Assembly: GCA_964016885.1 (NCBI GenBank)
Contig: OZ024741.1
Span: 251,410,001 to 251,474,000 of the forward strand
DNA length: 64,000 nucleotides
DNA from: Eledone cirrhosa
Taxonomy: Eukaryota
Direction: 5' to 3'
Below, piece after piece: positions 20,081 to 43,789 of this stretch. The position numbers were made by a program, and so were the translations under genes. The notes beneath the pieces are model-generated. The model saw only the letters and a program-made list of their open reading frames with translations, had not been told where the DNA came from and ran no database searches. Position 1 is the first letter of the stretch. Every line of letters starts with the position of its first letter.

Positions 20081-20291
20081 CCACCCCTCATCGTTAGTTA
20101 CAGTTCAATAATATATGGACAGATATAAATTCCTACACTGTCCAACACACACACATATATATATAACACCCACAATATATATATATATATATATATATAT
20201 ATATATATGAGCCATAAAACATGTCCAGTGAATATCCAACTGATAAGGTATGATTATCATGGGTATGTCTCTATTTATAAAACAAACTTTG

Positions 20292-20355
20292 TATTTTATC
20301 TGATGAAAGCGTACCAATGTTGTTTTGGTACCCTTGAAATATATATATTAAAATA
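20292..20355 (+). ncRNA. Minimal hammerhead ribozyme (family C)
   Basis: TATTTTAT-CTGATGA-AAGCGTACCAA/TTGGTACCCTT-GAAA-TATATA-TA-TTAAAATA. Confidence 0.75.
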
Positions 20356-20736
20356 AATATGGTTTTATAAATATAGTTTCCATTTATTTAATATCATTGT
20401 ATATATATATATATATATATATATATATATATATATATATATATATATATATATATATATATATATATAATTAAGGATAGTGTCCCGAAATGGATAGGAG
20501 AAATAACCACAGATAGATAAGGTACTCAATACGTTATGCATAATTATTATATAGAAATGGCATATACAGGACTAAAACTGTTATATCTATATACACTGAA
20601 CTGTCATACACACACACACACACATATATATATATATAGTGGTAGAACACTGGATGGTAATATCCGTAGTGGTAGAGCACTCAGTCCATGGGACGAGTTA
20701 GGTAGAAGTGGTTACACAACAGTTAGTTCACCATAC

Positions 20737-20774
20737 CGAGAACAATTGTTTCACCTTAGCGGACCCTCACCTCG
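20737..20774 (-). ncRNA. Degenerate hammerhead motif
   Basis: Reverse complement: CGAG-GTGAGGG-TCC-GCTAA-GGT-GAAA-CAATTG-TT-CTCG. Stems I and III are intact but the CUGANGA core is mutated. Confidence 0.45.
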
Positions 20775-20854
20775 TAATGGTTCACTTCTATATATATATA
20801 TATATATATATATATATATATAAATGTAATCTGAGTTTTTCGAATATTAATAAT

Positions 20855-21030
20855 TGTTTCTACTTTTGGCACAAGGCCAGCAATTATCCAGTACATTACT
20901 GGTACTTTATTTTATCGACCCCGTAAGGATGAAAGGCAAAGTTAACCTCGACGGGATTTGAACTCAGACCGTAATGGGACGTAACTATGCTGGAAAGCAT
21001 GGCGTCCGACCCTCTACCGATACTGCCAAT
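20855..21030 (-). mobile_element. tRNA SINE family 1 (internally deleted subfamily)
   Basis: GGCACAAGGCCAGCAATTATCCAGTACATTACTGGTACTTT...ACCGATACTGCCAAT. Confidence 0.85.
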
Positions 21031-21211
21031 TATTTGCTCTAAACATTCACAGGACCATGTGTATTACATGTGTAAAGTTTGAAAACAATCGGTTGGGTGG
21101 TTCTCGAGTTTTAGGGAGCTGACAGACAGACTGACATTATCTGTTTTAGATATATATATATGTATGTGTGTGTGTGTGTACACTCCACACTGTCCTCTGC
21201 CCATATATATA

Positions 21212-21500
21212 TACACTGTACACCACCCTACACTGTTATAGATACATATACACTGTACACCACCCTACACTGTTATACATACATATACACTGTACACCAC
21301 CCTACACTGTTATAGATACATATACACTGTACACCACCCTACACTGTTATACATACATATACACTGTACACCACCCTACACTGTTATACATACATATACA
21401 CTGTACACCACCCTACACTGTTATACATACATATACACTGTACATCACCCTACACTGTTATACATACATATACACTGTACATCACCCTACACTGCTCTAC
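21212..21500. repeat. 37-bp minisatellite (~8 units)
   Basis: Unit TACACTGTACACCACCCTACACTGTTATACATACATA. Confidence 0.9.
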
Positions 21501-21589
21501 ACAACCATACACTTTCATTCATTGTCATACATATACACTGCCCTACACTGCCATACATATATATACTAGGGTTTCCTTTTACCCTACAT

Positions 21590-40079: not shown

Positions 40080-40826
40080 TTTGTACTTAGGCAAGGCGGG
40101 TCTTCTGTATGACTGTGTAGCGCCAAATATCTCGGTCCAGTGACATTGTCTTGGAGAGGTGTCAGTGTGTGAGGTCGGAATTTATCAAGTCGTCCCAGGT
40201 TTTTCTGGGTCTGCCTACTCCATGGCTACCGTCTATTTTTATCACCCTGCACTTTTTTATACAGCTGTCGTCTTTCATGCGCATCATGTGACCGTACCAA
40301 CGTAGTCTTCTCTCGAGTAAACAACATCTGATCCCTCTTATTCCTAATTTCTCCCTTAGTTCGTTTATGCTTTGCCGTTCACGTATATTACTATTACACA
40401 TCCATCGGAGCATGCAAGCTTCGTTCCTCTCCAGTCTGCATATATCCTCTGCACACAATGCCCAAGTCTCACTGCCATGTAACATTGCTGTTCGTATACA
40501 AGCATCATACAGCCTGCCTTTCATTTTTAGAGAGAACCCTTTAGCGGCCAACAGCGGTATAGGCTCTCTGAACTTTTTCCATCCAGTTCTGACTCTGGTT
40601 ACTGTACTTTCAGAGCACCCTCCACTGATTTTGTCACCCAGGTAACGGAAGGTGTCCACTATTTCTATAGAACCATCTGTGCAATGGAATGAGCTAGTAT
40701 CGTGTGGGCACATGCTGCTACTTATTGCACCTGAGCACCGGCCACATATAAAATCTATATTCTTAGTTAGCTTACCTCTGATCCCACTACATCTTTTATG
40801 CACCCATACTTTGCATTTGGGACATA
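40080..40826 (-). mobile_element. 5'-truncated RTE-clade LINE (RT thumb/C-terminus)
   Basis: ORF 40162..40884(-): FRYLG, AMLHGSETW, RRLRWYGHMMRM, GRPRKTW, preceded by CPKCKVWVHKRC...CGRC. The 5' end abuts (TA)n. Confidence 0.9.
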
Positions 40827-41043
40827 AAATATATATATATATATATATATATATATATATATATATATATATATATATAAGCAAAAGGATATTTAATTTG
40901 TTGGCAATTCAACAAATATATATATTTATAACTGATTCGAAGCACTCAACAGTTTTTTTCTGGAATATAATATCTATCCAGGTAAAACTTGAACCGTTAA
41001 GGTCTCGTTCCTGGATATGTCAATATTTATAAAACAAACTTTG

Positions 41044-41104
41044 TATTTTATCTGATGAGAGCGTTCCAAAGTTTTGGTACCCTTGAAATATATATTATAG
41101 AATA
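41044..41104 (+). ncRNA. Minimal hammerhead ribozyme (family C)
   Basis: TATTTTAT-CTGATGA-GAGCGTTCCAA-AGTT-TTGGTACCCTT-GAAA-TATATA-TT-ATAGAATA. Confidence 0.8.
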
Positions 41105-41810
41105 GATATAATTTCATAAATATAGTTTCCATTTATTAATATCATTGATATATATATATATATATATATATATAGAAAGAGAGAGAGAGAAAAAGAGAGA
41201 GAGAGAGAGAGAGAGGGAGAGAGAGAGAGAGAGAAAGAGAGAGAGAAAGAGTGAGAGAGAGACAGAGAGTCTGTGGTGCTGAGACCGAGAAGACCACTAA
41301 TCATAAGAGTATTCAATGCATATGTGAGATGTAGAGTGGGTATAGAGAGACATAAAATCCTGACCACAGTTCCAAGCTGTTGGGATTTTACATATCTCTC
41401 TCTCTCTCTGTATATATATATATATATATATATATATATCATCATCATCATCATCATCATCATCATTTTATGTCCGCTTTTCCCTGCTTGCAAGGGTGGG
41501 ATGGGAACTGATTCTGGCTTGATTTCTACAGCTGGATGCCCTTCCTAACACCAACATCATTTACAGTGAGTGCTGGGTGCTTTTTTGCCGTGGCACCTCC
41601 ACGACCACTTTGCAGTGGAATGATATGGACCCCAGTCTCTCTCATCTCATTTCTACAGCTGAGTAAACTGGAGCAATGTGAAATAAAGTGTCTTGCTCAA
41701 GGAAACAACACATCACCCAGCCTGAGAACTGAACTCACAACCTTTCAATTGCAAGGCCAATGCTCTAACTACTAAACCATGTGCCTCCATATATATATAT
41801 ATATATATAT

Positions 41811-42240
41811 CTAGGGTGGGTAAAATTCCCGAGATCCATGGACGAGTTGTCTCCAGCGGTCTCTGTCCCTCATTATCGCTGCCATGTCCTGCGTCTCCAA
41901 CAGACCAGTGTCTGTCCTTAGGGCATCAACATATGTTAACTTCGGTCTTCTTCTTCCAGTGTGTCCATGCAGGGGCTCCCACAGGAGCACTGAGTGCAGT
42001 GTCAACTCTGGATGTCGGTGAGCATGTCCAGCTAACCTCAGTCTCCTCTGTGTCACTTTTGAGTTGACTCGGTGTGGAAGTTGGACCTTTGTAAAGACCT
42101 GAAGATCCGCCACTTCGTTGCTGTAGTGGAGTCTGTGTTGCTGTACGGGTCTGAGACTTGGACACTGACCAAGAAACTCACTCAGATGGTGGATGGGTGC
42201 TACACGAGAATGCTGAGGATGGCTCTGAACATTAATCAGT
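41811..42240. mobile_element. RTE LINE 3' fragment with inverted 5' segment
   Basis: 41811-42071(-): RRLRLAGHAHRHPE...RRRPKLTYVD...DRDRWRQLV. 42072-42240(+): LKIRHFVAVVESVLLYGSETWTLTKK...YTRMLRMALNI. (TA)n on both sides. Confidence 0.85.
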
Positions 42241-42839
42241 ATATATATATATATATATTACTGCTCCCTCGTTCTCTCTGTTTCTCTTACTTTCTTTCGT
42301 CCCCTCTGTCATGTCAGTTAACACTTTCTCTTTACTGACCTCTTCCTCGCACTTCCACTCACTCACTGTTTCTCCCCTTCTCACTTCCCCCCGTTCGCTT
42401 CGAAAACGATTTTCCTTCTTTCTTGCATCGGATTCATCGCGAAAGGTCTATTTCTTACTCGCTCATATATTCACCCAGCTTATACTGATAGAATAACTAT
42501 GTAGCTTGTGTTTCTTCCTATCTTCGGTTAGCTTTCCCCTGTGTTGTTTACTTGTCTCACTCGCTTTACGCGTTTTAATTGTCCTAATAACTTATTTTTG
42601 TTATTATTGCACCAACGTGAGGTATATGATTTTTAATGCAATGAAATACCAATGACCGTTGGCAAATCACTGATGAGGGACTCATTTTATAACATGTTAT
42701 CCATGTGCAACCATACAGTATTCTTCTCCCCATATTTTTCATATATATATATATATATATATATATATATATATATATATATATATATATATATACAATG
42801 ATATTAAATAAATGGAAGCTATATTTATAAAACCATATT

Positions 42840-42900
42840 TATTCTATTATATATATTTCAAGGGTACCAAAACTTTGGTACGCTCTCATCAGATAAAATA
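42840..42900 (-). ncRNA. Minimal hammerhead ribozyme (family C), best-preserved copy
   Basis: Reverse complement: TATTTTAT-CTGATGA-GAGCGTACCAA-AGTT-TTGGTACCCTT-GAAA-TATATA-TA-ATAGAATA. Confidence 0.85.
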
Positions 42901-43789
42901 CAACGACATATTATACTCCAGAAAACATGTTGAGTGCTTCAAAATCAGTTATAAACATATATATTTGTTGCATTACCAACAAATTATATATCCCTTTGCT
43001 TATATATATATATATATATATATATCCCTTTGCTTATATATATATATACATATGCATGTGTTTGTGATTGTGTGTGTGTAGACACATACACACACAAGAC
43101 AAACAAACATGCACACACACAAAATCCATGTTTGCTTATCAGCCTCTCAGACCGGTTTGTTAATCAAAATATAAGGTTTATTCATATAAGGTGTGTATCT
43201 CACATGAGATCACTACTTAAGTCTCTCTCTCTCTCTCTTTCTCTTTCTTTCCCCATCTCTCTTTGTCTCTATCACTTTCTCTTTCTCTCTTTGTCTCTCC
43301 CTTACTCTATTCCTTGTTCTCTCTTTCTTTCCTTTCACTATCTCTCTCTGTCTCGCTCACTTTTACTTTCTCTCAGTCGCTCTCTCTCTTTCTTTCCCCA
43401 TCTCTCTTTGTCTCTCTCTCATTCACTCTCTCTTCTTCTTTCTTTCTCTTTCTCTCTGTGTTTCCCCACCTCTCTTTGTCTCTCTCACTTTCGCTCTCTC
43501 TATCAATCTCTTTGTCTCCCCCCCCCCCACACACACACACTCTCTCTGTCTTTGAAATATAGTAGTTTAGTATTGGTCTTGGTATTTTGCTGTTGTTGTT
43601 TAACCCAATGTCAACCCTGATCTAGTAAATCTATGATCCAACCGATTCCAACAATGACCATCACATTTATACAGAGTTACGTCTATTATGACAACATCTA
43701 ATCTTTCCCTCTCTTTGTTATGATACTAGGGTGTGGTTTGGAGATTTGGTTGCTCTTTCTAGCAGGGGCTTCCTCGTCGACTTGTTGTA

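What the first reader, a model, noticed from the sequence alone, without database searches (positions are those of the whole stretch)
20215..43000. ~300-bp non-coding HHR element (family C) with defined ends: candidate retrozyme-like element
Seen: four copies at ~20215-20400+, 27566-27875+, 40878-41148+ and 42795-43000-. All share the 3' end ...GTTTCCATTTATTTAATATCATTG-(TA)n. Three share the same 5' start (TA)n-AAG.A.A.GGATAT..AATTTGTTGG.AATTCAACAAAT. There is no ORF, no TIR and no tRNA head, and the HHR sits ~45 nt from the 3' end. Shared 5' ends argue against random 5' truncation. Inference: a discrete short non-autonomous element mobilised via RNA, probably by a PLE RT/GIY-YIG, that targets (TA)n.
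Basis: partly seen in the sequence, partly recalled or inferred. Interest (0 to 1): 0.75.

Follow-up and report, generated by a model that had tools for sequence, protein, structure and literature searches.

The report
Cap-ended stubs of Hydra-type Penelope retrotransposon
These four ribozyme-carrying repeats are short, mostly back-to-back pieces of a 3.4-kb protein-coding jumping gene of a known type that lands in TA runs, not a separate mini-element; many relatives stop at one fixed base with an extra G, which likely records the capped start of the RNA being copied.

Summary
The four copies and their hammerhead motif are real, but they are 191, 307, 269 and 206 bp long and not one discrete element. 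The 'shared 5' end' is the reverse complement of a ~95-nt tail. In longer genomic copies that tail follows ...ATCATTG in the ribozyme sense, both after a 637-aa RT/GIY-YIG ORF and just before the ORF's start codon. The parent is a ~3.4-kb Penelope-like element with the Hydra-clade motifs; its end 24-mer occurs 6,673 times. Of 86 unselected insertions, 42 are head-to-head pairs, and in 38 of these one arm ends at ATCATTG and the other at the tail end. No head-to-tail short tandems occur among the 86, so the retrozyme test fails. The untemplated base before it is G in 53 of 100 cases, against 6 of 52 one base further on. This points to run-off at a capped transcription start after priming at two internal sites (inferred; no RNA data). 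New family of a known kind, with a useful mechanistic clue.

The parts
20209..20399 (+). Copy A: single arm without inverted tail; about 15 nt unassigned filler, then pLTR body of the CCAGTG subfamily starting about 4 nt after the run-off A (20224-20399); inside (TA)n
   Evidence: filler boundary read by eye
20292..20355 (+). Type I hammerhead motif of copy A (3' strand of stem I has two substitutions)
27567..27638 (-).
   Evidence: 94% identity to the tail of natural copy L025
27649..27873 (+). Copy B body: 225 nt of pLTR ending at site 1 (ATCATTG); extends 47 nt upstream of the run-off A at 27696
27769..27829 (+). Type I hammerhead motif of copy B; predicted cut between 27821 and 27822; U-U mismatch at the base of stem II
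40879..40973 (-). Copy C head: complete inverted tail
   Evidence: 88% identity
40974..41147 (+). Copy C body: 174 nt starting one base after the run-off A (CTATCC...), with 5' hairpin from 40978, hammerhead 41044-41104 and site 1 end
42908..43001 (+). Copy D head: complete tail, inverted relative to the body; a further short duplicate of the tail end at 43022-43035
42796..42901 (-). Copy D body: 106 nt of pLTR with hammerhead 42900-42840 and site 1 end at 42796

Best explanation
The four copies are short insertions of a ~3.4-kb protein-coding Penelope-like retrotransposon with Hydra-clade motifs, each holding the element's hammerhead-bearing end and, in three cases, an inverted piece of its 95-nt tail, and they likely arise when the element's enzyme primes reverse transcription at two fixed sites on one RNA from the two nicked strands of a TA run. 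Shown: parent anatomy is pLTR (5' hairpin, hammerhead, site 1 = ATCATTG), 95-nt tail (ends at site 2), ~55-nt leader, ATG, RT + GIY-YIG ORF, ~1.2-kb 3' UTR, pLTR. Insertions are typically head-to-head, with one arm ending at each site, and sit in (TA)n. Many arms stop at the A of TTC-ACTATCC, often preceded by an untemplated G. Inferred: the GIY-YIG domain nicks both strands of (TA)n; the 3' ends pair with the short TATA/ATAT words after each site; RT copies until it falls off or reaches the capped 5' end of a pLTR-initiated Pol II transcript (at most 178 nt from site 1, about 273 nt from site 2), copying the cap as G; the two cDNAs are joined by microhomology. Run-off at the cap means the hammerhead had not cut those templates. 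Arms longer than 178 nt (copy B; 28 of 125 arms) need a template continuing upstream, likely a read-through tandem or a hammerhead-circularised monomer. Whether the capped RNA is the mRNA's own 5' end or a transcript from a 3' pLTR is not resolved.
For: Parent element: L158 has ORF (637 aa), 3' UTR, HHR, tail, (TA)n. 87 places carry the leader that follows the tail and precedes the ATG. Ten loci with both pLTR ends called have units of 2.9-3.7 kb. The predicted fold (pLDDT 88) matches RTs, with telomerase RTs among the top hits. Window heads match the tail at 87-94% in reverse orientation. Unselected sample (first 100 of 6,673 motif hits, 86 loci after removing 4 duplicates): 42 two-arm, 38 of 42 with one tailed and one tail-less arm; 109 of 126 ends abut TA runs. 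The two arms of one insertion are more alike than arms of different insertions (median 0.955 vs 0.903, n=22, p 6e-5). Run-off: 35 of 102 arms with 5' ends 25-245 nt upstream stop at 165-185 (p 7e-12 vs uniform), at ACTA(T/C)CC in three subfamilies. G before the A in 53 of the first 100 of 137 hits vs 6 of 52 one base downstream, Fisher p 2.7e-7; about 15% expected from the partner arm. A second subfamily gives 12 of 30. An extra G at full-length L1 5' junctions is read as the cap in PMC11702581. Two internal RT start sites bounding the tail, extension of both strands and uncut RNA as the dominant template were shown in vitro for a Poseidon PLE (PMC11167929). TSS in the pLTR: PMC2377424; Inr-like TCACT in a rotifer pLTR: PMC3846280.
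Against: No RNA was examined, so TSS, cap, cleavage and circles are all inferred. 17 of 37 G's before the run-off A are also what the partner arm would supply; among the other 40 junctions G is still 20. None of 75 ORF-linked 5' pLTRs starts at 165-182 (three start at 183-188) and 31 of 75 extend beyond 190, so full-length copies do not simply mirror a capped mRNA. Within-insertion arms beat the best outside arm in only 8 of 22 cases. The tree on ~170 nt is weakly supported. GIY-YIG is assigned by motif only; Pfam and PDB sequence searches found nothing. No uninterrupted full ORF was seen in the loci read. The hammerhead fold is not the minimum-energy fold as a monomer, and stem II starts with A-U, G-U or U-U. 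Arm boundaries come from BLAST against six natural copies and are uncertain by up to ~10 nt near the hairpin; ends near 250-270 may be reference-limited.
Confidence: 0.8

Rival explanations
1. Trans-mobilised short RNAs: the promoter in the 3' pLTR of the many tail-bearing long copies makes capped non-coding RNAs (hairpin, HHR, site 1, tail, (UA)n flank), and the element's protein copies them in trans. This shares most steps with the best explanation and differs in the source of the template.
For: Thousands of tailed ends exist (1,869 exact tail-end hits) against 87 leader-bearing copies. ORF-linked 5' pLTRs rarely start at the run-off A. The Penelope 3' pLTR alone can drive transcription (PMC2377424).
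Against: Site 2 lies in a fold (z -4.3, one natural copy) whose 3' half is in the leader that such RNAs lack. In the Poseidon PLE, RNA downstream of the start sites was required (PMC11167929). Inverted arms stopping at 166-176 also flank ORF-linked copies (L186, L261, L262).
Confidence: 0.3
2. One reading: a discrete, self-propagating ~300-bp non-autonomous retrozyme-like element with defined ends.
For: A fixed 5' boundary exists. A few solo units from the run-off A to the tail end sit between TA runs (L098, L155). Similar junctions recur at separate loci (L044/L064, L059/L147).
Against: Lengths and junctions differ among the window copies and their best genome matches. Tail end followed within 30 nt by the start: 0 genome-wide; site 1 followed by the start: 2. 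Same-strand hammerheads within 700 nt: 0 of 86 loci, against 22 head-to-head. Largest short-only clade is 4 of 74; the nearest neighbour is a long or ORF-linked copy for 40 of 74. Recurrent junctions have microhomology to a fixed end; their flanks were not checked for segmental duplication.
Confidence: 0.07
3. Purely random 5'-truncated pLTRs, with head-to-head structure from self-priming (on an antisense template, as proposed in PMC3846280) and the pile-up caused by RT pausing at the hairpin.
For: Two thirds of arms end elsewhere. A 7-9-bp hairpin with compensatory changes starts 5 nt after the run-off A. Many junctions hold small palindromes.
Against: RT moving 3' to 5' on the RNA would be expected to pause at the hairpin's 3' side (about 135), not beyond its 5' side (general knowledge, not tested). 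Pausing does not explain a position-specific extra G. Simple fold-back does not give one tailed and one tail-less arm in 38 of 42 cases.
Confidence: 0.1
4. MITE or DNA transposon with long terminal inverted repeats inserted at TA.
For: Inverted arms 97% alike, 1-3 kb apart, TA flanks.
Against: Arm lengths vary and the two ends are asymmetric. The interior is PLE ORF and 3' UTR. The window copies have no inverted arms.
Confidence: 0.01

Closest known systems
Hydra clade of C-terminal-EN Penelope-like elements (Craig et al. 2021, PMC8557442), e.g. Hydra-1_Obim, Hydra-2_Amil
   Same: Single ORF of about 700 aa with RWR/RWK, DKT, GLYRDD, CxCx5C linker, no CCHH in the GIY-YIG core, CxxC...E...N...CxH; hammerhead near the 3' end; (TA)n target; partial tandems and 5' inverted copies.
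   Different: Unit 2.9-3.7 kb with ~1.2-kb 3' UTR (listed Hydra families mostly under 3 kb). Tail ~95 nt (30-40 nt is described for PLEs). Hammerhead stems differ from those listed for Hydra-1_Obim, so a different family. Protein similarity to the published families was judged by eye only.
PAc, Poseidon PLE of Anolis carolinensis (Frangieh et al. 2024, PMC11167929)
   Same: Tail bounded by two internal RT start sites; both target strands extended; uncut RNA as main template.
   Different: PAc starts lie inside the ORF and are not homologous to the cut DNA. Here both sites lie upstream of the ATG and are followed by short TATA/ATAT words matching the (TA)n target. The parts I read report no cap run-off.
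Inverted-pLTR/tail insertions of Penelope (D. virilis) and A. vaga PLEs (PMC2377424, PMC3846280); opposite-strand min-HHR pairs 100-700 bp apart (PMC4209133)
   Same: Head-to-head pLTRs, optional tail on one side, TSS or Inr-like TCACT in the pLTR, many solo hammerheads attributed to truncated PLEs.
   Different: PMC3846280 explains head-to-head structure by self-priming on an antisense template. The data here fit two-site priming on a capped sense RNA.
Metazoan non-LTR retrozymes (PMC7229834; bioRxiv 10.64898/2026.07.22.740005)
   Same: Small, AT-rich, non-coding, type I hammerhead, related to PLE pLTRs.
   Different: Retrozymes are head-to-tail tandem repeats processed to circular RNAs. These copies are solo or head-to-head and remain part of an autonomous PLE's end.
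L1 twin priming and cap-derived extra G (PMC11702581 passage; twin-priming geometry recalled)
   Same: Two primers from opposite strands give an inverted plus a direct arm; extra G at copies reaching the RNA 5' end.
   Different: In L1 the first primer sits on poly(A) and the second is opportunistic. Here both sites are fixed and internal.

Membership tests
Penelope-like element (EN+) | Single ORF with telomerase-like RT | tested here: met
   637-aa frame with YRDD; predicted fold matches RTs, telomerase RTs give the highest query TM-scores 0.37-0.39. No Pfam or PDB sequence hit.
Penelope-like element (EN+) | C-terminal GIY-YIG endonuclease | tested here: met
   By motif only: VVYK...YVG...F..RW.NH; the core pattern is found in 101 of 116 aligned proteins. 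Not folded separately.
Penelope-like element (EN+) | pLTRs from partial tandems, inverted copies, optional tail | tested here: met
   5' pLTRs of 132-827 nt, 91-98% identical to their own 3' pLTR in 8 loci; 42 of 86 insertions two-armed.
Penelope-like element (EN+) | Hammerhead motif in the pLTR | tested here: met
   202 of 261 pLTRs parse as a full type I motif; stem I paired in 1,550 of 1,616 cells. Rfam negative. Cleavage not tested.
Hydra clade | RWK motif, DKT instead of DKG | tested here: met
   RWRAF in ORF starts; DKT in the query and 114 of 116 aligned proteins; criteria from PMC8557442 section 11.
Hydra clade | CxCx5C linker; no CCHH; CxxC and CxH around E and N | tested here: met
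   CNCRIKSNC; 0 of 101 cores with internal CxxC; CKLCIE...N...CRH in L166 and L163. L158's frame ends before the CxH.
Hydra clade | (TA)n insertion preference | tested here: met
   109 of 126 ends.
Hydra clade | Phylogenetic placement with published Hydra RTs | not tested
   Published proteins were seen only in the paper's supplement; no tree or scored alignment with them was made.
Hydra clade | Generally shorter than 3 kb | tested here: not met
   Units of 2.9-3.7 kb. The paper gives this as a general description, not a diagnostic.
Non-LTR retrozyme | Head-to-tail tandem repeats of short HHR-bearing monomers | tested here: not met
   0 and 2 genome-wide hits for two junction patterns; 0 of 86 loci. 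L416 is a nest of separate insertions in one TA run.
Non-LTR retrozyme | Canonical (not minimal PLE-type) efficient hammerhead | tested here: inconclusive
   Long stem II and palindromic 2-bp stem III, as described for PLE hammerheads that likely act as dimers; activity not testable.
Non-LTR retrozyme | Abundant linear and circular monomer RNA | not testable with these tools
   No RNA holder listed.
Non-LTR retrozyme | Lineage independent of the autonomous element | tested here: not met
   Short copies interleave with ORF-linked copies (low resolution).

The most novel reading that the evidence does not exclude
The short copies are a genomic record of the PLE cycle. One capped, uncut, sense RNA is primed at two fixed internal sites from opposite strands of a TA run and copied out to the cap, which yields head-to-head pLTR-plus-tail insertions without any antisense template. 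Full-length and partial-tandem copies come from a second template, a hammerhead-processed circle. The ribozyme would thus switch between dead short products and productive ones, and extra-G junctions would map PLE promoters from genome sequence alone.
Probability: 0.4. Interest if true: 0.62.

Novelty: new member of a known kind. Interest (0 to 1): 0.36.

Why it matters
As a family it is ordinary: one more Hydra-type PLE whose stubs look like small ribozyme elements. It is a caution that a 'shared 5' end' can be an inverted tail. The useful part concerns mechanism. How PLEs make head-to-head pLTRs, tails and partial tandems, and what the hammerhead is for, is stated as open in the papers read (PMC8557442, PMC2377424, PMC11167929). 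The asymmetric arms and the position-specific extra G give single-base predictions for the transcription start and both RT start sites that can be tested directly. My seven literature searches returned no paper reporting cap run-off in PLE copies; subscription papers and most supplements were not covered.

Tried and rejected
Rfam on the window and on copy B: no hammerhead family hit, only chance miRNA/snoRNA matches. Pfam on the ORF and five homologues, and PDB sequence searches: nothing informative. A Pfam scan of the whole alignment exceeded the size limit and was not done. Sequencing runs: no RNA holder listed; four contig sets of unknown kind were laid on L249 and cannot show starts or expression. 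The idea that full-length copies begin at the run-off A was rejected (0 of 75 at 165-182). A splice acceptor (CTGAC, pyrimidine tract, AG) near the boundary was considered, but copies start upstream of the AG. 5' ends at the hammerhead cut site show no clear peak (6 of 125 arms in the 45-59 bin). RNAalifold on 25 ORF-linked copies recovered only part of the expected structure. The MAFFT alignment misplaced the tail rows, so one search is the evidence used. Some LONG/short labels were wrong by eye (e.g. L383, L397, L399, L402 are junction copies); one search uses a corrected rule. PMC11371274 and PMC13282606 passages added nothing. Earlier-finding look-ups by place and by sequence were empty. 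The host species was not established here.
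Full report
1. Observation. The four copies exist at 20209-20399+, 27567-27873+, 40879-41147+ and 42796-43001- and match each other at E 1e-40 to 1e-58. All end ATCATTG before (TA)n. All parse as type I hammerheads: stem I TATTTTAT/ATAGAATA, CTGATGA, 26-29-nt stem II, GAAA, palindromic TATATA, UH. A different family at window 2116 keeps the architecture with another palindrome, TGCGCA. Rfam does not detect the motif and the active fold is not the monomer's minimum-energy fold, as described for PLE hammerheads that likely need dimers (PMC4209133, part 1 of 4 read). 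There is no long ORF and no tRNA. Lengths are 191, 307, 269 and 206 bp.

2. The shared start is an inverted tail. Searching the genome with copy B returned many 97-99% matches to its last 226 bp only, often as inverted pairs 1-3 kb apart. In those, the first ~84 bp of B appear on the opposite strand just beyond ATCATTG. Against natural copy L025, heads B, C and D map to tail positions +95 to +27, +95 to +2 and +95 to +2, and the bodies are 225, 174 and 106 nt. The four best full-length look-alikes (L002, L003, L005, L008) have four further junctions. The shared '5' end' is therefore a fixed 3' end of an inverted arm.

3. The parent. Interiors of long copies encode a GIY-YIG-type domain. L158 shows a 637-aa frame, ~1.2 kb of 3' UTR, the hammerhead, ATCATT, the tail and (TA)n. 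L161 and L166 show pLTR, tail, ~55-nt leader and ATG; the leader motif occurs 87 times. Ten loci with both pLTR ends called give units of 2.9-3.7 kb; in 8 loci the 5' pLTR is 132-827 nt and 91-98% identical to its own 3' pLTR. The protein has 885 homologues at E<=0.001. Folded with 115 of them (pLDDT 88) it matches RTs, with telomerase RTs among the top hits. The motifs fit the Hydra clade as defined in PMC8557442 (section 11 read whole, other passages, supplement part 2 of 59 and search passages): RWR, DKT, CxCx5C, no CCHH, CxxC/CxH. No tree with published proteins was made. No uninterrupted full-length ORF was seen in the loci read. The end 24-mer occurs 6,673 times (reversed control 0) and the tail end plus TA 1,869 times.

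4. Unselected insertions. The first 100 motif hits on C1 gave 90 loci, 86 after dropping 4 duplicates. 42 are two-armed and head-to-head; 38 of those have one arm ending at site 1 (ATCATTG) and one at site 2 (tail end); 44 show one recognisable arm. 109 of 126 ends abut TA runs. The RNA after each site begins with (A/T)ATAT or T-ATAAAT, a short match to the target. The two arms of one insertion are more alike than average (0.955 vs 0.903, n=22), though they beat the best outside arm in only 8 of 22. This is the geometry expected if two primers from opposite strands start at two fixed sites (twin-priming geometry recalled from L1). It agrees with the in vitro finding for a Poseidon PLE that the tail lies between two internal RT starts and that both strands are extended (PMC11167929, parts 1-2 of 4 read).

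5. A fixed upstream boundary. Of 125 arms with pLTR body, 102 end 25-245 nt upstream of site 1, and 35 of these end at 165-185 (p 7e-12 against uniform); 28 of 125 extend beyond 190. At base level the arms start at or within a few bases of the A of TTC-ACTA(T/C)CC in all three subfamilies, 178 nt from site 1 inclusive. A 7-9-bp hairpin starting 5 nt later shows compensatory variants (CCAAGAA/TTCTTGG, CCAAGGA/TCCTTGG, CCAGGAA/TTCCTGG). Where the base before that A is not the templated C, it is G in 53 of the first 100 of 137 hits (counted by hand), against 6 of 52 for starts one base later; Fisher p 2.7e-7, about 15% expected. A second subfamily gives 12 of 30. Of 68 inspected junction copies, 37 have G; 17 of those G's are also predicted by the partner arm, while 20 of the remaining 40 junctions still have G, including G directly after pure TA runs. 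An extra G at full-length L1 junctions is read as the mRNA cap (PMC11702581, one passage). Penelope's TSS lies in the pLTR (PMC2377424, passages) and an Inr-like TCACT was noted in a rotifer pLTR (PMC3846280, passages). I infer run-off at a capped Pol II start, which also implies the hammerhead 125 nt downstream had not cut these templates. Window copies C and A start 1 and about 4 nt after this A; D is truncated earlier; B passes it by 47 nt.

6. Result against the simple version. Among 75 ORF-linked 5' ends that could be mapped (of the 87 leader hits; the rest had no alignable upstream piece or were not resolved), none starts at 165-182, three start at 183-188 and 31 extend beyond 190. Long copies therefore need a template that continues upstream: read-through from tandems or a hammerhead-circularised monomer (inferred). 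It also leaves open whether the capped template is the mRNA's 5' end or a transcript from a 3' pLTR. The tail-plus-leader region folds strongly (z -4.3, 0 of 200 shuffles; one copy), with site 2 single-stranded inside a stem whose 3' half lies in the leader. Short copies lack that half, which favours cis origin and dead-end products.

7. Retrozyme test. Retrozymes are head-to-tail tandems yielding circular RNAs (PMC7229834, passages; bioRxiv 10.64898/2026.07.22.740005, parts 1-3 of 5). Tail end to start within 30 nt: 0 genome-wide; site 1 to start: 2. Same-strand hammerheads within 700 nt: 0 of 86 loci, against 22 head-to-head; 2 of 416 loci overall, both separate insertions in one TA run. In a tree of 195 pLTRs (74 short, 81 ORF-linked, 40 of 84 other long; 22 unclassified left out) short copies interleave with ORF-linked ones, the largest short-only clade being 4 (weak support). 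RNA could not be examined.

8. Verdict. Observation largely right; interpretation partly right. These are short insertions of a new Hydra-type PLE family. The general layout is in print; opposite-strand hammerhead pairs 100-700 bp apart were already attributed to truncated PLEs. The cap run-off signature was not found in my seven literature searches; the preprint's supplements are closed and those of PMC11167929 were not read, and either could bear on this. Earlier unchecked notes of this scan reached similar readings and are not counted as support. Interest 0.36.

Noticed in passing
window 25350-25835: Another head-to-head hammerhead pair (cores at 25465- and 25635+) with a one-sided tail. 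The tail shares TACTCC(A/G)GA and GTTGAGTGCT with the tail of this family, a possible shared recognition element.
   Followed up: partly
window 2095-2225: Solo hammerhead of a different family inside (TA)n: same stem I, long stem II, palindromic TGCGCA stem III.
   Followed up: partly
window 4425-4606 and 5165-5350; 23620-23900 and 24900-25180; 37234: Further inverted pairs or solo copies with hammerhead-like cores, likely ends of other PLE families.
   Followed up: no
window 5436-5591: Near-perfect 154-bp palindrome with dispersed related pieces at 62396-62784.
   Followed up: no
window 15024-20007: 5-kb minisatellite (41-bp unit, 122 copies, 95% matches) ending about 200 bp before copy A.
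   Followed up: no
G000:C2:232249869 onward: A 35-bp-period satellite containing the run-off/hairpin start of this pLTR, hundreds of copies, apparently born from the element's promoter region.
   Followed up: no
L416 (G000:C25:6839200-6842249): Three short copies nested in one TA run, two starting TA-run, G, ACTATCC; insertions re-target the TA runs beside earlier insertions.
   Followed up: partly
L160:3-1319 and L164:3-1861: A different PLE ORF (YVDD, CxxC inside the GIY-YIG core, Neptune-like by motif) next to Hydra-type copies.
   Followed up: no
L249:1486-1520 (leader): The GCTC...GAGCACT hairpin just after site 2 resembles, by eye, a stretch near the 3' end of the record preceding Hydra-1_Obim in the PMC8557442 supplement (Hydra-2_Amil by its HHR), suggesting a clade-wide RNA element.
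   Followed up: no
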